A stretch of DNA of 64,000 bases from an uncultured archaeon. GTDB taxonomy: Archaea > Asgardarchaeota > Lokiarchaeia > Sigyniarchaeales > SOKP01. The position numbers and the translations under genes are program-made. Each line of letters opens with the position of its first letter. Position 1 is the first letter of the stretch. The stretch spans positions 64,001 through 128,000 of the forward strand of contig CAZALK010000015.1 in assembly GCA_964486045.1 (NCBI GenBank). Direction: 5' to 3'. Below are positions 29,428-37,752 of the stretch, piece by piece. The notes below the pieces were generated by a model. The model made no database searches, was not told the origin of the DNA, and was given only the letters and a program-made list of their open reading frames with translations.

Positions 29428-30288
29428 TCAAATTGGCTTAATTCTCAATCCATTAATCAATTCGGAAGATTTACTTAGTGAAATGTCATTATCTAATAGT
29501 TTTTTCAAAATTTCTTTCAAAATTAATGTTTCATCCTGAGCTTCATTTAAATCATATGCTTCATTTTTTTGGTAGTTTATATTCTTAGATTTATTCTGTT
29601 TTATAATTTGGTAATAATTTTGAGAATTAACTTCAATACCTTTACGCGTTGCAATTAATAATGCAGAAATTTCATGCTTGGTCTTTACCCGTTTTCCTTT
29701 ATCTTGGATTTTAATTTTAGAAGTTTTTGATTCATCAATTAAATAAACTTTAATAGATTTTCGGTTTTTAAAAGTTTCATAAACTCGCTTTAATAAATCA
29801 ATAGTTACTGGTATGATCCCCCTACCAAATTTGAAGGTAAAACGCATAGGTTTTGAACCTTCCTTTTGAAAACAAAGAATATAATCATTAATAATTTCAA
29901 GAAGTTTTTCTTTTTTATAGATTGTGTGAGATTGTAAATAAAAATCATCCAAAAAAACGACAATTCCAATTTGGCTTGTACCTGGATCAATAGAAAATGT
30001 TAAATTTGAATAACTCTCCTTAAATTCTATTTTATATGCCGCTAATATTTTTAAAATATAATGGTGAAAATTTTCATTCTTGTCGTACGGAAGAATTTTC
30101 AATTTTTTATAGTTATCGTCAAATTTATGAATTTCTTCAGATGTTGTAAGAACTATCGAAGGAAGAGTATGGAATTTTCTTTGTACAGTTAGAATTTTGA
30201 AATTAACATTCAATCGAATCAATTCTCTGTTTAACTTATAGAAAAAATTTAAATTTTCAGTGAAGATGTATAATAATTTCTTAATCAT
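29428..30288 (-). CDS. Hypothetical protein with RNase H-like (YqgF/RuvC-type) domain
   Basis: SIDPGTSQIGI and IDESKTS motifs. Confidence 0.6.
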   Translation of the reverse strand: MIKKLLYIFTENLNFFYKLNRELIRLNVNFKILTVQRKFHTLPSIVLTTSEEIHKFDDNYKKLKILPYDKNENFHHYILKILAAYKIEFKESYSNLTFSIDPGTSQIGIVVFLDDFYLQSHTIYKKEKLLEIINDYILCFQKEGSKPMRFTFKFGRGIIPVTIDLLKRVYETFKNRKSIKVYLIDESKTSKIKIQDKGKRVKTKHEISALLIATRKGIEVNSQNYYQIIKQNKSKNINYQKNEAYDLNEAQDETLILKEILKKLLDNDISLSKSSELINGLRIKPI

Positions 30289-30357
30289 GATTAACTGTCG
30301 TTAAATATATTATTATACAAAGGGAAAAAAAGTCTTTTGTAATACAAATGAGATATG

Positions 30358-30391
30358 TAGCAACCAAACGTAATACAATTGAAAGCAAGAA
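30358..30391 (+). repeat. Direct repeat copy A (TAGCAACCAAACGTAATACAATTGAAAGCAAGAA)
   Basis: 30370-30391 is identical over 22 bp to 33153-33174, with upstream TAGCAA/AAA also shared. Confidence 0.9.
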
Positions 30392-30418
30392 TTTGAATAT
30401 AATAAATCTCTTTAAAAA

Positions 30419-30730
30419 TTAATCTTGAAAGTTTTTTAATAGAAACTTAAGGGCTTTAATTCCTTTATCTGATATTTTATACTTTATATATCCATCTTCT
30501 TTTCTCTTTCTATCACTTTTATCAATTAAATCATATCTCAAAAAGCATTTTATATATCTGAAAACCGAACTCCTTTTCATTATAGACATTTTAGAAATTT
30601 CTTCAATTAGGTTTTTACATAAAAGTTGAGGCTGTTCATTTATGAATTTAAGTAAAGTGATTCCTTTCTCGTTTAAAAAATTAATAATCGGAAGTCGATT
30701 ATCAAACCTGAACGTCAATGATTTTCTCAT
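30419..30730 (-). CDS. Winged-helix (ArsR/MarR-like) DNA-binding protein
   Basis: KRSSVFRYIKCFLRYDLI...YKISDKG wHTH pattern; ATG at 30730 preferred over 30781. Confidence 0.7.
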   Translation of the reverse strand: MRKSLTFRFDNRLPIINFLNEKGITLLKFINEQPQLLCKNLIEEISKMSIMKRSSVFRYIKCFLRYDLIDKSDRKRKEDGYIKYKISDKGIKALKFLLKNFQD

Positions 30731-30771
30731 AACTAAAATATGGAGGTATTTTATAAAAATATATCTCAAAA

Positions 30772-30787
30772 TTTGACACATGTCAAA
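30772..30787. promoter_or_regulatory. Palindrome TTTGACA-CA-TGTCAAA, candidate operator
   Basis: 7-bp perfect arms in the divergent intergenic region, next to TATA-like TTTTATAAAA (30749-30758). Confidence 0.45.
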
Positions 30788-31017
30788 AAAATGTACATCT
30801 CTGAAATTTGTCGAGGAATCTAAAACATCTAATTTTATATTTTATTTTCAAATTTGATTTATATGGTTCACCCAATATTAACATAAAATTATCTAATAAG
30901 GGAAAATCCAAAATTTTGGGTAGAGTTTATATTTTTTAAAAATAATAATTATTATTAAATAATTTTAAATAAAATAATTGTTTACATATTATTTAGCATC
31001 TAAGAGATGGAGAGAGA

Positions 31018-31323
31018 ATGGAAGTATATACACCTGCTTTTATAAAGATTAGGGAATTACTTCAAGTAGAACTACTAAAATATATTGGCGAAAATATTGC
31101 CGTTAATTCCAATGATATAAATGAATTTATAATGGTTCTTAAAGAGAAAAGTAAACATGATAACAAAAATTTTAATTTAATTGAATTTACATATAGTTAC
31201 CCATATAGTTCTCAAGTTCAAGATTTATTAGTTGATTTAGTCAGACGATGTATCGTAAAGCAAACAAGAGATGGATATCAATTAACTAGCCATGGTCTAA
31301 GCTTGATTGGAAATGATATATGA
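31018..31323 (+). CDS. Small winged-helix protein (YwgA/Panacea-like)
   Basis: F..YSYPYSSQVQDLL and YQLTSHG; stop overlaps the HD gene start (ATGA). Confidence 0.55.
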   Translation: MEVYTPAFIKIRELLQVELLKYIGENIAVNSNDINEFIMVLKEKSKHDNKNFNLIEFTYSYPYSSQVQDLLVDLVRRCIVKQTRDGYQLTSHGLSLIGNDI

Positions 31324-33035
31324 ACCTCAATAGCAAAATTAATGATATTATTAATTTTATTTTTGATAAATTTGGAATGACAGAAGATTTTCCAGAGAAA
31401 CCCAAATTACATATTCATGATAATGTTTTTGGAACCTTAACTTTTACTGATTATGAGCGAAAGGTTGTTAATTCTCCACTTTTACAGAGATTGACTCAAA
31501 TAACACAAATGGGATTAGCCAATTTTGTATATCCTGGTGCTGTTCATAATAGATTTTCTCATAGTCTAGGGGTGTCTCATATTTCTGCAAAAATTTATCG
31601 TCAATTAATGGAATCAGATACTGGACGTGACAAAACAAATATAAAAGAAGACATTAATACTTTGAAGTTAGCGGGATTACTTCATGATATTGGGCATTGT
31701 CCGTTCTCCCATGTTTCTGATGATGTTATCAAAACTTCAACTCATTTTAATGATATCCCTAAAGCTAATATTGATTCTGAGATTTGCTCTCGAACAGGTG
31801 AGCAAGGTGATAACAAAAATATCCATGAGTTTTTAGGGTTTCACCTTTTGAAATCTAATCGAGTAGAAAATTTAATAAATACAATTTATAAATGTGTCCC
31901 ATTTGATTTTGAATTAATTCCTTTATGTGTTACAGGCAATTTATTACCTTTTAATAATGAAAATGGTCTATGTCACCAAATTTTCGATGATAAATATAAG
32001 ACATTACTAATAAAAATAATTAATGGATTTTCTGATTCAGATAAAATTGATTATATATTACGAGATTCTCAATTTTCGGGATTACCACTCCCTGCAGATA
32101 TCGATAGATTAATTTCATTTTTTGAAATTATATCTCATCAAGATACTTATGAATTAGGCGTATCTGAGAAAGGTGCAAGAGCTTTTAATTTATTACTTCA
32201 ATCAAAAACAAAGATGTTTCCAACTGTTTATCAACATCACACTACATTAGCTTGTGAATCTCTATTAGTATTTGGAATAATTGATGCTATGCGAAATGTA
32301 AATGAAGCCACAGTAAATATTGATACTGAAAAATGGCATCCTATCGAATGTGGCGTCGATCTTCTTTATTATACTGATGGGTCATTATTAGATTATTTAA
32401 GAATAATAGATAATCCAATTTCTAATGATGTTGTAAATAGACTTTTAAATAGAAGACATTATAGGACAATTAGACGTATATTTACTTGGGAACTCAGAAA
32501 TGAGTTAATAGTGTCAAGAAAGGTTTTTAGAGAAGACTTAAAAAACAGTGGATTATTTTCAGACTTCCAAAAACTATTAGATGAGGGAAAGATGGGACAA
32601 TATACTGTAGAAATGAATTTATCTTATATGAAATATGAAGCTATAAGAGAAAAAAGAATTGATGAATTTTATAAAGAATTTGATTCAAGAGATAAAATGC
32701 TTAGTTTTAAGAGAAAGATGATCAATAAGGAACCTTATATTTTAAAGAAATTGAATAAAAATTTTCCCAATGTTGATGAAGACACATTAATAGATTATAC
32801 TATATGTGTCCGAATTGCTGGAACTCTATCTGACAAACCATATCAACAACCGTATGTAAAGAGATTAAACAGGTTTAAGAATGAAACCGAATTATTATCA
32901 TTATCGCAGATGGGATTTGTAGAGCCTCAAGCATTAGATTATCAACACATCACTTTCTATTCACTACCTAAGTTTTCAGACATATTAAGACCACATATAA
33001 ATGATTATTTACAAGAAAAATTATTTACTAATTAG
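31320..33035 (+). CDS. HD-domain phosphohydrolase, SAMHD1/YwfO-like dNTP triphosphohydrolase
   Basis: LQRL..ITQMG, VYPGAVHNRFSHSLG, LLHDIGHCPFSH, HE, DSDKIDYILRDS, VYQH. Confidence 0.9.
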   Translation: MNLNSKINDIINFIFDKFGMTEDFPEKPKLHIHDNVFGTLTFTDYERKVVNSPLLQRLTQITQMGLANFVYPGAVHNRFSHSLGVSHISAKIYRQLMESDTGRDKTNIKEDINTLKLAGLLHDIGHCPFSHVSDDVIKTSTHFNDIPKANIDSEICSRTGEQGDNKNIHEFLGFHLLKSNRVENLINTIYKCVPFDFELIPLCVTGNLLPFNNENGLCHQIFDDKYKTLLIKIINGFSDSDKIDYILRDSQFSGLPLPADIDRLISFFEIISHQDTYELGVSEKGARAFNLLLQSKTKMFPTVYQHHTTLACESLLVFGIIDAMRNVNEATVNIDTEKWHPIECGVDLLYYTDGSLLDYLRIIDNPISNDVVNRLLNRRHYRTIRRIFTWELRNELIVSRKVFREDLKNSGLFSDFQKLLDEGKMGQYTVEMNLSYMKYEAIREKRIDEFYKEFDSRDKMLSFKRKMINKEPYILKKLNKNFPNVDEDTLIDYTICVRIAGTLSDKPYQQPYVKRLNRFKNETELLSLSQMGFVEPQALDYQHITFYSLPKFSDILRPHINDYLQEKLFTN

Positions 33036-33139
33036 TTAGATTAAAAAGAGTAAAATAATAATCAACTTTTTTTTTTTAATTTTCTGAACTTATAAAGTGT
33101 AGTATCATCTCTAAAAATAAAGCACTTTTTATACGTAAA

Positions 33140-33174
33140 TAGCAATTGAAATGTAATACAATTGAAAGCAAGAA
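33140..33174 (+). repeat. Direct repeat copy B (TAGCAATTGAAATGTAATACAATTGAAAGCAAGAA)
   Basis: See copy A at 30358-30391. Confidence 0.9.
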
Positions 33175-33405
33175 GAACAGGTGAATTATTTTTTCTTTAT
33201 AATTTTCTCAAAGTGCCTATTCTTGAGCAAAGGAAATGAATCCCAGAAAATATAAAAGATAAAAATAAATGGAAATTATTAAAATTAAGAACCCTATTCA
33301 TTATTAATCTTTAAATACGAATTGTAAATAAATTATAAAATATTAACAGTAGTATTGACGAACTTCTCAAAGATATGTTAGAAAACTTAAGAGGATTATA
33401 AAAAG

Positions 33406-33618
33406 ATGCTAGAATGTGACTTTTGTAACAAGAATCGGGTTGTTACAATAAAATTAGAATTATTTAACTCAGAAATTGATGAGGATCCAGAAGATTTAGA
33501 TTCAAAAAGAATTTGCATGATATGTCTTGAAAAAAGAAATTGGAAAATAGATATAAGGGAAGTTTTACAATTTGAAATAGAAGATTCAGTAGATTTTCCA
33601 GAGGATTTTGAAGGGTGA
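33406..33618 (+). CDS. Small acidic zinc-finger protein
   Basis: CDFC...CMIC; GAGG upstream; its end carries the GGTGA RBS of the next gene. Confidence 0.65.
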   Translation: MLECDFCNKNRVVTIKLELFNSEIDEDPEDLDSKRICMICLEKRNWKIDIREVLQFEIEDSVDFPEDFEG

Positions 33619-33625
33619 ATAAAAA

Positions 33626-34696
33626 ATGAAAATAAAAATCGCAAATATGGATGTTGGTAAATTTGCCATAAGAGAGAAATTTGAAGATGAACATGTGAAA
33701 GAAATTATAGAAAGTTTTAAAGTAGATGGACAATGGAATCCAATAATTGTCAGACCAATAGAAGATGGAAGATATGAACTCATTGCAGGGCATTATCGTT
33801 TACAAGCGGGTAAAGAATTGGGTTGGGAAGAAATTGAAGCTACTATTAAAGATTTAGCAGATGATGATGCAGATATATTATCTCTAAAGACTAATTTATT
33901 GCATTCTGACATGACAGCCACAGAAAAAGGAAAAGTTATAAATAAAATTATAACAAAATATGGAATTACCCAAACAGATTTAGCAAAAAAACTGGGCATA
34001 AGTGAATCTTCAATTAGTAGATTCTTAACTCTGGCACTATCATTACATGAAGATGTTTCAACTGCTTTAAGTAATGGTGAAATTAACTATGCTGTTGCTG
34101 TGATCATAGGGAGTTTCAAATTGAAAGACCAACCAAAATTCTTGGAAATAATCTTGGAACGGAAAATCTCATCCCCAGAAGATGCAAGTAAATTAAAAGC
34201 GAAATTTCTTAACGATACAATCTATACAATCGGTTATCAGGGAAAAAAGTCAATTGACTTTATTAAAATACTCCAAAATAATGAAGTAAAAGTTCTTATT
34301 GATGTTAGATATTCAGCTAAATCAACCATGCTACCAGAGTTCAGTAAAGATGTCTTAAAACGAGATTTAGAACGAAATAAAATAAAATATCGACATTATC
34401 CAGAATTGGGAATTCCTTTTGTAATTCAAGCTCCCTATAAAGATGGGAAACTTTCAGTTGATTGTTTAAAACAATGGTATAAATGGCAAGTAGAAGATAG
34501 CGATAAAGTTGATTTCGATAGTGTTATGAAATACTTAAAAGATTCAGGACGACCTGCATTAATGTGTATGGAAAAATATGCTAAAAAAATGAGAGATCAG
34601 AAATATTCATGCCATAGAGATATTTTAGCTAATTTAATTCTAAACTATACAACTATAGATTCCTTACTTAAATTTAAGCATAGGATTGATCTCTAA
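33626..34696 (+). CDS. ParB/Spo0J (N-domain + HTH) fused to a C-terminal DUF488 domain
   Basis: PIIVRP..GRYELIAGHYRLQA; HTH TQTDLAKKLGISESSISR; from aa ~197 IYTIGY, LIDVR, YRHYPELG, ALMCME, CHR. Confidence 0.85.
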   Translation: MKIKIANMDVGKFAIREKFEDEHVKEIIESFKVDGQWNPIIVRPIEDGRYELIAGHYRLQAGKELGWEEIEATIKDLADDDADILSLKTNLLHSDMTATEKGKVINKIITKYGITQTDLAKKLGISESSISRFLTLALSLHEDVSTALSNGEINYAVAVIIGSFKLKDQPKFLEIILERKISSPEDASKLKAKFLNDTIYTIGYQGKKSIDFIKILQNNEVKVLIDVRYSAKSTMLPEFSKDVLKRDLERNKIKYRHYPELGIPFVIQAPYKDGKLSVDCLKQWYKWQVEDSDKVDFDSVMKYLKDSGRPALMCMEKYAKKMRDQKYSCHRDILANLILNYTTIDSLLKFKHRIDL

Positions 34697-34782
34697 GTGT
34701 AATGCTAAGGATGATATATACGTTGATGTAAGAATTTTATAAATAATAATTTAGAATATAGATTAGTAAATGGTGATTTTGT

Positions 34783-35592
34783 ATGTTAATAAAAGATTTA
34801 ATTATTTTAGGGAGGGCAGTTCCAGTTTTATTAAAAGATCAGCGTAAAACAATCTGTACTGCTGGTTATTCTCACGAATTAGGTTTTGTTAGAATATATC
34901 CTACATTTTACTATGAGAATATTCATCTTTGGGATATAGTTTCTATTGATGTAAAAAAAGACACACGTGATTCTAGAAGCGAATCATGGAAAAAACTTGC
35001 GGATTCTGAATTTAAAAAAATTGGTACATTAAAAAATGACAGAGAAGAAAAGGAAACTTTATTGGAATCAATTTATCAAAATAAATGTACACATGATTTG
35101 AATGAGGAGAATAGAAGTTTAGCCATTATTAAACCTCAAATTGTAGATTGCAATTTTAAAGAAGTTTCTGCTACTGAAGATGGAAAACTTGTCACAATGA
35201 GTTTAATGGATTTCTTTACAAATAAAAAAAAAACAAATAGGAAACCTCTGCTGGTAAAAACAAATTTTGATGTTATTCCCTATATACGTTATAGATGTTG
35301 TGTTAACTGTAGAACTAAAGCGCCTCATAATCAACAGATATTAGAATGGGGAGGATACCAATGGATTCAGAAACACCCTGATGAAAAAGAGCAATTATGG
35401 GAAAATTATCGAATTTTTGATGAGGAATGGTATAAATATTTTTTCATTGGCAATTTACGGGATCAAAGAACTACATGGTTGATAATTAACATTTTAAGAG
35501 GAAAGAAAAATGAAGGTATTGAGAGAGAGAATGGAAAAATTTTGTACCAATCTAAAGAGGAAAGCAAAATAACTCAGAAAAAATTATTTTAA
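34783..35592 (+). CDS. Hypothetical protein, probable OB-fold nucleic-acid-binding partner of DUF488
   Basis: TICTAG...VRIYP, DSRSESW, SLAIIKP, CxxC...H, FFIGN. Confidence 0.55.
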   Translation: MLIKDLIILGRAVPVLLKDQRKTICTAGYSHELGFVRIYPTFYYENIHLWDIVSIDVKKDTRDSRSESWKKLADSEFKKIGTLKNDREEKETLLESIYQNKCTHDLNEENRSLAIIKPQIVDCNFKEVSATEDGKLVTMSLMDFFTNKKKTNRKPLLVKTNFDVIPYIRYRCCVNCRTKAPHNQQILEWGGYQWIQKHPDEKEQLWENYRIFDEEWYKYFFIGNLRDQRTTWLIINILRGKKNEGIERENGKILYQSKEESKITQKKLF

Positions 35593-35697
35593 AAAGATTA
35601 ATTTAAGAGTATTTTTCATTTTCTGTAAAAATATATAATAATTTATTTCTCAAATTATAATTATTAATATTAGATAAAATTAATAATTTGTAATTAG

Positions 35698-36387
35698 ATG
35701 CTATTTCCAGCCTCAAACTTAAATAAAATTTTCAAAAGCTTCTCTTTGAATAAAGGGATTATCTCAATTTGGGGTGATTTTGGTGTTGGAAAAACTACAT
35801 TTGCTCTTCAAACTGCAATTTACACTGTTAGAAATGCAAATAAAATCATTTATATATATTCTAAGCCAAATTTTCCGGCTGAAAAAATAAGGAACTTGGT
35901 AAGAGGATCAAGAGAAAGTCTAAATAATATTATCTTCATACAAACAGAGAATTTTGAGGATGTATATAATATCGTGTTTAATTTAGAATTTTTAATCCTA
36001 AATTCTCTCAATATAACAAAAGAAAAATTTGAATTAATTGTGATAGATTCCTTAACAGGTCTTTATCGATTAGCGTTAAATAAAGCGAAAAAAGAACAAA
36101 ATTATAACTTAAATTATACTTTAAACCAAATTCTAGCAAATCTCTTAAATATAAATATTTCATACGACATTGAAATTCTGATAGTAAATGAGAAGGTAAA
36201 CATGTTGATCAACAATCAGATTATTGAAATACAAAGTGGTGGGAAAGTTATGGATTATTGGGTTCCAACAAATATCAAAATTGAACGAACGAAAATTTTA
36301 AAAGAGAGAAGATTTCTACTAACGAAACGTCCTGAGATTCAAAATATGGAATTTAAATCTAGATTAACTGAAAATGGTTTTCAGTGA
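35698..36387 (+). CDS. RadB-like RecA-family ATPase
   Basis: GDFGVGKTT, LIVIDS, GGKVMDYW; lacks the RadA N-domain. Confidence 0.8.
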   Translation: MLFPASNLNKIFKSFSLNKGIISIWGDFGVGKTTFALQTAIYTVRNANKIIYIYSKPNFPAEKIRNLVRGSRESLNNIIFIQTENFEDVYNIVFNLEFLILNSLNITKEKFELIVIDSLTGLYRLALNKAKKEQNYNLNYTLNQILANLLNINISYDIEILIVNEKVNMLINNQIIEIQSGGKVMDYWVPTNIKIERTKILKERRFLLTKRPEIQNMEFKSRLTENGFQ

Positions 36388-36498
36388 ATATCTCAAAAAA
36401 TATATTCCATATTTTCATAAAAATTCCTTTTTTATACTTTTTCACATTAATATTTGTGCAATTACAATATTTAATTTAATTTTTAGTTATATATTATA

Positions 36499-37752
36499 GT
36501 GATGGATAAAAAAGAAGAATTTATGAAACATGCCTTAAGTACAATTAAAGAAGGAAATACCGAATTCTATATACATAATGTTGACAAGGACTCCATTCCT
36601 TCAAAATCAATGACCGTCTTCTATAATCAGAAAATGGAGATAAATAGAGATATTTCTAATTTAGCAATTATCGCTTATAGTAAAATTTATAATCAGGATT
36701 CTCTCATAATCGTAGATTCTATGGCTGCTTCAGGAATAAGCTCAATCAGAATGTTAAAAGAATGCGCTAATATTAAAAAAATCTACATCAATGACATAAA
36801 CCCCGTTGCGGTAGATCTCATTCATAAAAATCTATTTTTGAATAATCTATTTGATCAACCATCTTATATAAAAGTGTCAAGAAAGGATGCAAATTATTTA
36901 TTTGCAGAAATTACACAAAATTACTTTACCCATCTGTATGATAATCCAGAAAAACCAAATATCATCTCAATTGATCCATTTGGTACTCCAAATTTATATT
37001 TAGATGCTGCTTTTAAAGCTATCCAAAATAAAGATGGATTATTATGTGTAACAGCAACTGATACTCCAGTTTTGTTTGGAATAAGGTCAAAAAGTTGCAT
37101 TCGAAAATATATGTCAAAACCTCTCCACACCGAGTATTGTAAGGAGATTGGAGCCCGAATTTTAATCCATTTTATATCTAGAATTGCGAATGTGAATAAT
37201 ATGGGGATAATTCCACTTCTAACATTTTATTCTTCACATTTCTTAAGGATTTTTTGTCTAACTTTTAAAAATAAAGATGAGATCTCAAAATCCTTTAAAA
37301 ATTATGGTTTTATAGTCCATTGTAATAAATGTGGATATCGCTCAAGTTTTCAGGATAACATTTTAGAATTACCGGGGAATTGTCCTCTTTGCAAGGAAAG
37401 TAGAAAAATGGAGTATGCTGGTCCTCTCTGGATTAATGATATTCATGATTTGGAATTTTTAAATGAAATTGTCGGTTTAAATAATGAATTACAATATACC
37501 AACAAAAAAAGAATTGACAAATTGCTAAATATCATCAGGGAAGAAGTCAAAAATCCAATTTCCTTTTACAATATTCATAAATTGAGCAGAATTTTAAAAA
37601 TTTCAAACACCCCAAAATTAAATACAATAATCGAAACCATTAGGAAAAAAAAGTATAGTGCTTCTAAAACTCATTTTGATTTTTTATCAATTAAAACAAA
37701 TATGAATATAGTGGGGATTAAAGAGACTCTATTAGAATTGAATGATAAATAG
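36499..37752 (+). CDS. trm1: tRNA (guanine26-N2)-dimethyltransferase
   Basis: VFYNQKMEINRD, NDINP, IDPFGTP, VTATD, GPLW. Confidence 0.95.
   Translation: MMDKKEEFMKHALSTIKEGNTEFYIHNVDKDSIPSKSMTVFYNQKMEINRDISNLAIIAYSKIYNQDSLIIVDSMAASGISSIRMLKECANIKKIYINDINPVAVDLIHKNLFLNNLFDQPSYIKVSRKDANYLFAEITQNYFTHLYDNPEKPNIISIDPFGTPNLYLDAAFKAIQNKDGLLCVTATDTPVLFGIRSKSCIRKYMSKPLHTEYCKEIGARILIHFISRIANVNNMGIIPLLTFYSSHFLRIFCLTFKNKDEISKSFKNYGFIVHCNKCGYRSSFQDNILELPGNCPLCKESRKMEYAGPLWINDIHDLEFLNEIVGLNNELQYTNKKRIDKLLNIIREEVKNPISFYNIHKLSRILKISNTPKLNTIIETIRKKKYSASKTHFDFLSIKTNMNIVGIKETLLELNDK

What the first reader, a model, noticed from the sequence alone, without database searches (positions are those of the whole stretch)
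33406..35592. Zn-finger / ParB-DUF488 fusion / OB-like three-gene module: candidate DNA-scanning defence or damage-response system
Seen: a complete ParB-like N-domain plus HTH fused to a DUF488 domain that keeps its YTIG, DVR, CxE and CHR motifs. A CxxC-CxxC microprotein precedes it and a CTAG/RIYP protein with a CxxC...H site follows. No ParA lies nearby, and the ParB arginine patch is altered (GHYR instead of GxRR). Established: ParB N-domains act as nucleotide-gated sliding clamps or nucleotide sensors. From recall, DUF488 proteins are predicted nucleic-acid-acting enzymes often found in conflict loci with OB-fold partners. Inference: a ParB clamp repurposed to deliver or gate a DUF488 effector on DNA, rather than a partition system. 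I do not recognise this architecture as a named system.
Basis: partly seen in the sequence, partly recalled or inferred. Interest (0 to 1): 0.8.

Follow-up and report, generated by a model that had tools for sequence, protein, structure and literature searches.

The report
ParB-DUF488 enzyme with double-OB partner
A 2.3-kb mobile three-gene cassette in an Asgard-type archaeon encodes a small zinc-finger protein, a CTP-switch ParB DNA-binding module fused to a phosphatase-like DUF488 enzyme, and an RPA-like double-OB DNA-binding protein. The genes are real and travel together, but this is an archaeal variant of a catalogued, untested candidate antiviral gene pair, not a new kind of system.

Summary
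Three co-directional ORFs sit at the stated coordinates:
- a 70-aa CxxC…CxxC protein;
- a 269-aa protein that models as two OB folds with a Cys/His site.

The fusion–OB pair is strongly conserved. The partner lies next to the fusion in 18 of 20 archaeal genome loci, in three gene arrangements. It also pairs with stand-alone DUF488.

The zinc-finger gene occurs only in the closest Asgard relatives.

The trio is a discrete cassette (33273-35611). It sits inside a 5.4-kb insertion that is absent at the same site in all six same-genus relatives examined. No ParA-like (AAA_31) gene is on the contig.

The pair is already catalogued. Both proteins hit PADLOC candidate PDC-M19, which is predicted but untested. 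The ParB-HTH-DUF488 architecture was published in 2025 with CTP binding shown for one archaeal member.

This scan reached the same reading on other genomes before.

Best reading (about 0.45): a mobile DNA-directed conflict or defence module. ParB/HTH would load on DNA, the OB partner would bind single-stranded DNA, and DUF488 would process a phosphate-bearing nucleic-acid end.

Function is unproven. Interest is moderate.

The parts
33273..33405 (+). Conserved non-coding leader of the cassette. It holds a TTTAAATA-type box, a likely archaeal promoter.
   Evidence: 87% nucleotide identity with metagenome contig L041 begins at 33273. A block of about 65 nt is nearly identical in both. The promoter role is inferred.
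33406..33618 (+). 70-aa zinc-finger microprotein (CxxC-x29-CxxC) with an acidic, aromatic C-terminal tail. It is a lineage-specific accessory gene.
   Evidence: ORF found. No hit in Pfam, PADLOC, NCBIfam or PHROGs. The frame and all four Cys are kept in L041, and similar microproteins occur in L029/L042 and L052. It is absent from more distant loci.
33626..34696 (+). 356-aa ParB_N - HTH_ParB - DUF488 fusion protein.
   Evidence: Pfam; NCBIfam parB_part E 3e-33; at least 315 homologue clusters with the same architecture.
33629..33895 (+). ParB N-terminal (CTPase-fold) domain. It has GHYRLQA in place of GERRxRA and KTNLL in place of ENLQR.
   Evidence: Residue-by-residue alignment to Noc and Spo0J structures, E 7e-22; conservation in alignment A2.
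33908..34174 (+). ParB-type helix-turn-helix DNA-binding domain.
   Evidence: Pfam HTH_ParB E 3e-10; aligned to the Noc/Spo0J DNA-binding domain.
34259..34636 (+). DUF488 domain: a Rossmann-like, PTP/rhodanese-like fold with invariant D-x-R and C-H-R.
   Evidence: Pfam E 2e-15; PADLOC PDC-M19A E 3.5e-24; AF2 pLDDT 95; fold matches; invariant residues.
34783..35592 (+). 269-aa double-OB (RPA/HIN-like) partner with a Cys3-His site.
   Evidence: PADLOC PDC-M19B E 1e-16; phrog_25907 E 2e-32; AF2 and fold search; adjacency tally.
35613..35652 (-). Orphan relic of the first ~12 codons of the neighbouring 286-aa core gene. It marks the right end of the 5.4-kb insertion.
   Evidence: Repeat D2. The alignment keeps the ancestral TTG AGA AAT AAA start seen in relatives.
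30248..30287 (-). Functional 5' end of the 286-aa core gene. It is the left copy of the ~40-nt duplicated target and marks the left end of the insertion.
   Evidence: In six relatives this gene abuts radB with a gap of about 54 nt.
30419..33035 (.). Co-resident module in the same insertion: a wHTH regulator (-), a 101-aa protein and a 571-aa HD dNTPase-like protein (+). It is not conserved with the ParB-DUF488 pair.
   Evidence: Pfam HD and HD_assoc_2; PADLOC dGTPase E 2e-12. No homologue appears beside the fusion in other loci, and L041 shares no DNA left of 33273.
33149..33174 (+). 26-nt repeat, with a second copy at 30366-30391. It heads an ~85-nt element shared with two other contigs and lies just left of the cassette.

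Best explanation
This is a horizontally acquired three-gene cassette whose conserved core is a two-protein, DNA-directed module. It is an archaeal, ParB-fused variant of PADLOC candidate PDC-M19.

Shown:
- The first core protein joins a ParB nucleotide-switch domain and a ParB HTH to a DUF488 enzyme domain.
- The second core protein is an RPA-like double-OB protein.
- The two genes are almost always adjacent.
- The cassette lies in an insertion that close relatives lack.

Inferred mechanism:
1. The ParB/HTH part binds CTP and DNA, and holds the enzyme on DNA.
2. DUF488 replaces the ParB C-terminal dimerisation domain.
3. The double-OB partner recognises single-stranded DNA or DNA ends, such as replication or entry intermediates of an invading element.
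4. The partner recruits or licenses DUF488.
5. DUF488, with its PTP/rhodanese-like pocket (D-x-R, C-x-E, C-H-R), then processes a phosphate-bearing nucleic-acid terminus.
6. The net role is in conflict between host and mobile elements, most likely defence.

The small zinc finger would be a lineage-specific regulator or adaptor.
For: Domain calls.

The ParB part aligns over its whole N-terminal and HTH region to the Noc and Spo0J CTP clamps. An archaeal ParB-HTH-DUF488 protein bound CTP in vitro (PMC12704722).

DUF488 fold (pLDDT 95): the matches are Cys phosphatases, including RNA 5'-phosphatases, diphthine-synthase-like and tetrapyrrole methylases, and RapZ-C. D, R and C-H-R are invariant in 59 sequences.

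The partner is a tandem OB fold (N-terminal OB Z 9.4).

Adjacency:
- 18 of 20 genome loci, in three gene arrangements, across Promethearchaeota, Bathyarchaeia, Methanomicrobia, Thermoplasmatota and Halobacteria;
- also with stand-alone DUF488 in other archaea.

Both proteins hit PDC-M19A/B.

Mobility:
- a 5.4-kb insertion absent in 6 of 6 relatives, with an orphan gene-end relic;
- the cassette is shared at 87% nucleotide identity with an unrelated contig;
- a full-length fusion was found in only 1 of 24 other same-genus species, plus a fragment with a stop codon in a second;
- the pair is present on plasmids pSOG1 and PL100.

Conflict-type neighbours occur in some loci: McrBC-like and DUF4238, a type IIG RM enzyme, DNA methyltransferases, DUF262, a weak CARF-domain hit, and here an HD dNTPase-like gene.
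Against: No member of the family has a tested function. PDC-M19 is only a 'guilt-by-embedding' prediction.

Most neighbours in 21 loci are unrelated or are mobile-element genes. Only a minority are recognised defence genes.

The fold matches for DUF488 are middling (Z 6-8.7), and the canonical C-x5-R phosphatase loop is absent. The C of C-x-E is lost in some homologues.

The ParB domain lacks the Box III catalytic Glu and two of the three Box II arginines, so clamp cycling may differ.

No loading site was found.

Nearest language-model clusters of the partner are mostly viral. That fits a virus-side function equally well.
Confidence: 0.45

Rival explanations
1. The module serves the mobile element itself: establishment, replication or segregation. 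ParB/HTH would mark the element's DNA. The double-OB protein would coat single-stranded DNA transfer or replication intermediates. DUF488 would process their ends. In this reading the chromosomal copy is leftover cargo of an integrated element.
For: The pair is on the Sulfolobus conjugative plasmid pSOG1, a S. shibatae plasmid and Haloquadratum PL100. Integrases occur in 4 of 21 neighbourhoods, and rep- or primase-like genes also occur. L029 sits among small unannotated genes, a virus-like context. Nearest atlas clusters of the partner are 67-74% viral. There are PHROG hits for both proteins.
Against: The window's insertion has no integrase, replication or transfer genes. Many loci are plain chromosomal contexts. 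No ParA accompanies it. Bacterial relatives were catalogued because they are embedded in BREX, DISARM or RM systems. No full-length fusion was found in 50,697 phage records or in IMG/VR.
Confidence: 0.25
2. It is a DNA-modification or restriction-linked module. DUF488 would chemically mark or unmark DNA or DNA ends. It would work together with DNA methyltransferases, as part of a self/non-self system.
For: N6_N4 methyltransferases lie next to the pair in 3 of 21 loci. They also do so in Halosimplex and on PL100, which has two methyltransferases and a DUF262 protein. An earlier report of this scan found the pair travelling with an RM operon in haloarchaea (unchecked here). The top fold match includes methylase-type domains.
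Against: No methyltransferase is present in this window's insertion or in most loci. Nothing in the DUF488 data points to a SAM-binding site: the conserved residues are D-x-R, C-x-E and C-H-R.
Confidence: 0.12
3. It is a housekeeping DNA-repair or damage-response factor, suggested by its position next to radB.
For: It is adjacent to radB. It has an ssDNA-binding partner and a candidate end-processing enzyme.
Against: The radB adjacency is accidental. In six relatives radB abuts the 286-aa gene, and the 5.4 kb between them is missing. The fusion is missing from most same-genus genomes and is patchy across phyla.
Confidence: 0.08
4. It is a canonical ParABS-type chromosome or plasmid partition protein.
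For: Automatic annotation of homologues reads 'ParB/RepB/Spo0J partition protein'. There is strong sequence similarity to Noc and Spo0J.
Against: No ParA (AAA_31) is on the contig. There is no ParB C-terminal dimerisation domain. The catalytic Box III Glu is replaced. The locus is a recent insertion. Archaea generally lack chromosomal ParABS (PMC12704722).
Confidence: 0.03

Closest known systems
PADLOC-DB phage defence candidate PDC-M19 (M19A = DUF488 protein, M19B = ~260-aa partner); Payne et al., bioRxiv 10.1101/2024.01.29.577857
   Same: Both window proteins hit the two PDC-M19 models (M19A E 3.5e-24; M19B E 1.3e-16 over nearly its full length), and the genes are adjacent.
   Different: The M19A model matches only the DUF488 part (profile positions 140-287 of 294). 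The window protein carries ParB_N + HTH in place of the M19A N-terminal region. The window adds a zinc-finger microprotein. It is not embedded in BREX, DISARM or type I RM. PDC-M19 itself is untested.
Archaeal ParB-CTPase-fold / HTH / DUF488 fusion proteins surveyed by Kaljevic et al., PNAS 2025 (PMC12704722)
   Same: Same domain architecture. That paper reports CTP binding for one archaeal DUF488-HTH fusion.
   Different: The paper gives no function, partner or genomic context for this class. The double-OB partner and the cassette structure come from this analysis. Which protein was assayed could not be traced.
Canonical ParB / Noc CTP-gated DNA sliding clamps
   Same: The N-terminal nucleotide-binding fold and the HTH align end to end (E 1e-21). 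The G-x-x-R-x-x-A core and the Box III Asn are kept.
   Different: There is no C-terminal dimerisation domain, no ParA and no identified parS. GERR is replaced by GHYR and ENLQR by KTNLL. An enzyme domain is fused instead.
Rhodanese / PTP-type Cys phosphatase superfamily, including RNA 5'-phosphatases and the RapZ-C domain. The 'RapZ-C-DUF488-DUF4326 clade' of Burroughs and Aravind 2023 is recalled from memory; the paper is not held.
   Same: The DUF488 model's matches are PTP/DSP phosphatases, diphthine-synthase-like methylases and RapZ-C. A conserved Cys and Arg sit at a strand end and helix start.
   Different: Z scores are middling (5-8.7) and there is no C-x5-R loop. Activity and substrate are unknown.
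RPA70 / HIN-200 tandem OB-fold DNA binders; Pfam DuOB (PF22557)
   Same: Two OB folds in one chain, the second with a Cys/His insertion as in RPA70 DBD-C. Three of 37 homologues weakly hit DuOB, and a DuOB cluster appears at rank 27 in the atlas.
   Different: There is no significant sequence match of the window protein to any OB family or to DuOB. DNA binding is untested.

Membership tests
ParB/Noc-type CTP-dependent DNA clamp | ParB N-terminal (CTPase-fold) domain | tested here: met
   PF02195 E 7e-17, above the cut-off. Aligned to Noc and Spo0J structures.
ParB/Noc-type CTP-dependent DNA clamp | ParB-type HTH DNA-binding domain | tested here: met
   PF17762 E 3e-10. TIGR00180 E 3e-33, above the cut-off.
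ParB/Noc-type CTP-dependent DNA clamp | Box II GERRxRA arginine patch and Box III ENLQR with the catalytic Glu | tested here: not met
   GHYRLQA and KTNLL[H/R] are at the aligned positions. Only G, one R, A and N are kept.
ParB/Noc-type CTP-dependent DNA clamp | C-terminal dimerisation domain that closes the clamp | tested here: not met
   The C-terminal third is DUF488. Whether DUF488 dimerises was not testable.
ParB/Noc-type CTP-dependent DNA clamp | Cognate ParA and parS sites | tested here: not met
   No AAA_31 match on contig C15. The only 16-bp palindrome is unique in the genome and not conserved.
ParB/Noc-type CTP-dependent DNA clamp | CTP binding and hydrolysis, sliding on DNA | not testable with these tools
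   One archaeal homologue of this architecture bound CTP (PMC12704722).
DUF488 (PF04343) | Profile match above the curated cut-off | tested here: met
   57.7 bits against a cut-off of 22.2.
DUF488 (PF04343) | Conserved T-x-G-Y, D-x-R, C-x-E and C-H-R residues | tested here: met
   All are present. D, R and C-H-R are invariant in 59 sequences.
PADLOC PDC-M19 | Protein A matches the M19A model | tested here: inconclusive
   E 3.5e-24, but only over the DUF488 part of the model (positions 140-287 of 294). The N-terminal part differs.
PADLOC PDC-M19 | Protein B matches the M19B model and is adjacent to A | tested here: met
   E 1.3e-16 over positions 6-261 of 269. The genes are 86 nt apart.
PADLOC PDC-M19 | Anti-phage activity | not testable with these tools
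   PDCs are predictions only.
Pfam DuOB (PF22557) | Profile match | tested here: inconclusive
   The window protein has no hit. Three of 37 homologues hit at E 4e-4 or weaker, with no evidence that they reach the 27-bit cut-off. Ten divergent paralogues have no hit.
Pfam DuOB (PF22557) | Two OB folds in one chain | tested here: met
   AF2 pLDDT 87. N-terminal OB Z 9.4. The whole chain aligns to HIN-200 and RPA70 AB.
PTP / rhodanese-type Cys phosphatases | Fold similarity | tested here: inconclusive
   Z 5-7.7 to many PTP/DSP chains. The top hit is a methylase domain at Z 8.7. Foldseek found no match at E <= 0.001.
PTP / rhodanese-type Cys phosphatases | C-x5-R catalytic loop | tested here: not met
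   Cys and Arg are 16-17 residues apart (C-x-E ... C-H-R).

The most novel reading that the evidence does not exclude
The fusion is a CTP-gated ParB clamp that carries its own enzyme. It would load on DNA, scan it, and use the double-OB partner to detect single-stranded or end structures of invading DNA. DUF488 would then chemically process these. This would be a new mode of archaeal antiviral defence, and the first ParB clamp shown to deliver a catalytic domain. The zinc-finger microprotein would act as a lineage-specific switch.
Probability: 0.25. Interest if true: 0.75.

Novelty: new variant of a known kind. Interest (0 to 1): 0.4.

Why it matters
ParB-type CTP switches fused to enzymes are a recently recognised class with almost no known functions. 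DUF488 is a large family with no characterised member. This pair is widespread in archaea, including Asgard lineages, and it sits on cultivable-host plasmids (Sulfolobus pSOG1, Haloquadratum PL100). That makes it experimentally tractable. Showing what the pair does would assign a function to DUF488 and test a PADLOC candidate. It would also show whether a ParB clamp can deliver an enzyme to DNA. The local result, a clean cassette insertion with an orphan gene-end relic, also documents how such modules move in Asgard genomes.

Tried and rejected
- Sequence search of ORF3 and of a DUF488 profile against PDB chains found nothing meaningful.
- Foldseek on the DUF488 model found no match at E <= 0.001.
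- IMG/VR scan with the fusion alignment found no relative.
- tblastn of ORF3 against 50,697 phage records found no match. The fusion gave only partial ParB or DUF488 hits.
- Rfam on 29800-36500 found nothing. The bacterial promoter/terminator scan was uninformative for an archaeon.
- parS search: the single perfect 16-bp palindrome (34246-34261) is about what chance gives. It is unique in the genome and not conserved beyond the nearest relatives.
- HD dNTPase as part of the system: rejected. No homologue appears beside other fusions, and it lies outside the shared cassette.
- The zinc finger as a universal third component: rejected.
- Pfam DuOB membership could not be established.
- The Burroughs and Aravind 2023 paper could not be read, so its placement of DUF488 is cited from memory only.
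- The text of Payne et al. does not name PDC-M19. The link rests on the PADLOC models themselves.
- The protein assayed by Kaljevic et al. could not be identified in the held supplements.
Full report
**Observation**

All are on the + strand, in DNA of about 28% G+C.

The 356-aa protein matches three Pfam families, each above its curated cut-off:
- ParB_N, residues 2-90, E 7e-17;
- HTH_ParB, residues 95-183, E 3e-10;
- DUF488, residues 212-337, E 2e-15.

It also matches NCBIfam parB_part at E 3e-33.

ORF1 has two CxxC pairs and no hit in any library. ORF3 has no Pfam hit. It matches PADLOC PDC-M19B (E 1.3e-16) and phrog_25907 (E 2e-32). The DUF488 part of the fusion matches PDC-M19A at E 3.5e-24.

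**The three proteins**

ParB part. Residues 2-182 align end to end with the N-terminal and DNA-binding domains of Noc and Spo0J, the CTP-dependent clamps (E 7e-22).
- At the aligned positions GERRWRA becomes GHYRLQA, and ENLQRE becomes KTNLLH.
- The glycine, one arginine, the alanine and the asparagine are therefore kept.
- Two arginines and the Box III glutamate are not.
- There is no ParB C-terminal dimerisation domain. DUF488 occupies that position.
- Kaljevic et al. (PNAS 2025, PMC12704722) list this architecture ('DUF488-HTH' fusions in archaea). They report that one such protein binds CTP.

DUF488 part. It was modelled alone with 59 sequences (pLDDT 95) and is a Rossmann-like alpha/beta domain.
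- No solved structure matches by sequence.
- Foldseek gives nothing at E <= 0.001.
- The exhaustive structural search gives three groups of matches:
  - PTP/DSP cysteine phosphatases: SsoPTP Z 7.7, laforin 7.5, KAP, PRL, Siw14, baculovirus RNA 5'-phosphatase, PIR1 and the mRNA-capping phosphatase;
  - N-domains of tetrapyrrole methylases and diphthine synthase (top Z 8.7);
  - RapZ-C (Z 5.3).
- These Z values are middling. From memory, this set of matches is what the rhodanese-phosphatase superfamily of Burroughs and Aravind (2023) contains. That paper defined a RapZ-C-DUF488-DUF4326 clade and predicted DNA-end processing roles in conflict systems. The paper is not held, so this is a recollection and not a test.
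- D-x-R and C-H-R are invariant, and T-x-G-Y and C-x-E nearly so.
- The canonical C-x5-R loop is absent.

ORF3. It was modelled with 37 homologues (pLDDT 87) and is a tandem OB fold.
- The N-terminal OB (residues 1-83) matches TEBP, RPA, PriB and SSB at Z 8-9.4.
- The whole chain aligns to HIN-200 and RPA70 AB.
- C25, C172, C176 and H182 are conserved, which suggests a zinc site.
- Only 3 of 37 homologues touch Pfam DuOB, weakly (E >= 4e-4). The window protein does not hit it, and neither do ten divergent paralogues.

**Conservation of the genes together**

The fusion has at least 315 homologue clusters with the same architecture and nearly the same length.

In a set of one genome per species it occurs in Promethearchaeota, Bathyarchaeia, Methanomassiliicoccales, Methanoregulaceae, Methanosarcina, Thermoplasmatota and several haloarchaea.

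A profile of ORF3 finds a partner directly next to the fusion in 18 of 20 full-length genome loci. Three arrangements occur: downstream, upstream and divergent. Some loci hold two or three paralogues. The two exceptions are short contigs.

ORF3 homologues also sit beside stand-alone DUF488 genes in other archaea.

ParB_N-DUF488 fusions of other lengths (394-508 aa) exist too.

The pair is on Sulfolobus conjugative plasmid pSOG1 and on Haloquadratum plasmid PL100.

The conserved unit is therefore two genes.

The zinc finger behaves differently:
- It is absent from the genome loci.
- In Bathyarchaeia-type loci a different 70-aa wHTH-like gene overlaps the fusion's start.
- It is present, with frame and all four cysteines kept, in the closest relative, L041 (fusion 90% identical).
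- Similar CxxC…CxxC microproteins lie between the fusion and the OB gene in two further close relatives, L029/L042 and L052.

**Genomic setting**

In six same-genus genomes the homologue of the 286-aa gene (window 29428-30288, minus strand) abuts radB (window 35698-36387) with about 54 nt between them. Synteny holds for more than 15 kb on both sides. The 5.4 kb between these genes in the window is therefore an insertion.

Its right end carries an orphan copy of the first ~12 codons of the 286-aa gene (35613-35652). That copy keeps the ancestral TTG AGA AAT AAA start seen in the relatives, while the functional gene now has a replacement 5' end. This is the signature of site-specific integration into a gene end.

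The insertion holds two modules:
- Left: a wHTH regulator, a 101-aa protein and an HD dNTPase-like protein.
- Right: the trio.

Metagenome contig L041 shares 87% nucleotide identity with the window over 33273-35611 only. The trio, with a conserved ~65-nt leader, therefore moves as one cassette. The HD module is not part of it.

At E <= 1e-20, a full-length fusion was found in 1 of 24 other same-genus species (55% identity), a fragment with a stop codon in a second, and none in the 16 other same-order genomes searched. It is single-copy here.

No ParA-like gene (AAA_31) lies on the contig.

**What the neighbourhoods say**

Among 136 neighbours from 21 loci, the recurrent families are phage-type integrases (4 proteins) and N6_N4 DNA methyltransferases (3). 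Rep- and primase-like genes and many unrelated housekeeping genes also appear.

Individual loci show:
- McrBC-like genes plus DUF4238;
- a type IIG RM enzyme plus an integrase;
- weak CARF-domain hits;
- a weak SocA/Panacea-domain hit next to a transposase;
- DUF262 plus two methyltransferases on PL100.

The language-model atlas places ORF3 nearest to clusters that are 67-74% viral. No full-length copy was found in cultured-phage records or in IMG/VR.

Overall the context is 'mobilome and variable regions'. Defence genes are frequent but not dominant neighbours.

**Interpretation**

Shown:
- the domain architectures;
- the tight two-gene linkage;
- the mobile-cassette nature of the locus;
- the lack of any partition context.

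Inferred: the ParB/HTH part holds the protein on DNA under nucleotide control, the double-OB partner supplies recognition of ssDNA or DNA ends, and DUF488 acts on a phosphate-bearing nucleic-acid terminus.

I favour a role in host-versus-element conflict, probably defence (about 0.45). The basis is the PADLOC candidate status of the bacterial relatives (predicted by embedding in BREX, DISARM and RM systems), the methyltransferase and restriction neighbours, and the accessory, patchy distribution.

Rivals:
- An element-maintenance or establishment role (0.25) is a serious rival, because of the plasmid and virus-like contexts.
- A modification-linked role (0.12) is suggested by the haloarchaeal methyltransferase association.
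- A housekeeping repair role (0.08) is undercut by the synteny result.
- Canonical partition (0.03) fails several defining features.

**Comparison with what is known, and novelty**

The DUF488 + double-OB pair is PADLOC PDC-M19, and the ParB-HTH-DUF488 fusion is in the 2025 ParB survey.

Three follow-up reports of this scan on other genomes (two Asgard archaea and a Haloquadratum plasmid) reached the same reading, and a fourth filed a ParB-ASCH cassette in a Chloroflexi genome under the same candidate.

What is specific here:
- the ParB-for-N-terminus swap relative to the M19A model;
- the Asgard-lineage zinc-finger accessory;
- the clean definition of the cassette and its insertion site.

I class it as a new variant of a known but uncharacterised kind, of moderate interest.

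Noticed in passing
window 30248-30287 and 35613-35652: The 5.4-kb insertion is bracketed by a ~40-nt imperfect direct repeat. The right copy is an orphan relic of the first ~12 codons of the 286-aa core gene and keeps the ancestral start seen in relatives. The gene now uses a replacement 5' end brought by the insert. No integrase lies in the insert.
   Followed up: yes
window 30366-30391 and 33149-33174; also G000 C13:132806, C14:135923, C22:35261 and 35914: A 22-26-nt motif (GTAATACAATTGAAAGCAAGAA) occurs six times in the genome and never in the reversed control. The copy left of the cassette extends to an ~85-nt element that is nearly identical to the copies on C14 and C22. Its ...ATTGAAAG core recalls the 3' end of some CRISPR repeats (from memory). 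Rfam finds nothing. Its role is unknown: a recombination site, a small RNA or a promoter element.
   Followed up: partly
window 30419-33035: A second module sits in the same insertion: a divergent wHTH regulator, and a 101-aa protein whose stop overlaps the start of a 571-aa HD / HD_assoc_2 protein. That protein has weak dGTPase (anti-phage dNTPase) similarity in its N-terminal part only. This module is not linked to ParB-DUF488 elsewhere.
   Followed up: partly
L032:7789-8004, L033:7792-8004, L029:6202-7004: In Bathyarchaeia-type and some Asgard loci, a conserved small wHTH-like protein (motif LTW.QI...P.N.WVRRME.DIGLIR) sits just upstream of the fusion with a 4-nt overlap. It takes the place that the zinc finger holds here.
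   Followed up: partly
L008:1788-4331, L031:4108-5671, L048: Some Asgard loci carry two or three divergent paralogues of the double-OB partner in tandem next to one ParB-DUF488 gene.
   Followed up: no
G000 C1:447564-448069: A second ParB_N-containing ORF (439 aa open frame, preceded by a short ParB_N fragment) lies elsewhere in the genome. It was not examined.
   Followed up: no
L014 (Bathyarchaeia contig) and proteins P0164, P0172: A few fusion homologues have Gly in place of the Cys of the C-x-E motif but keep C-H-R. That cysteine is therefore not universally required.
   Followed up: no
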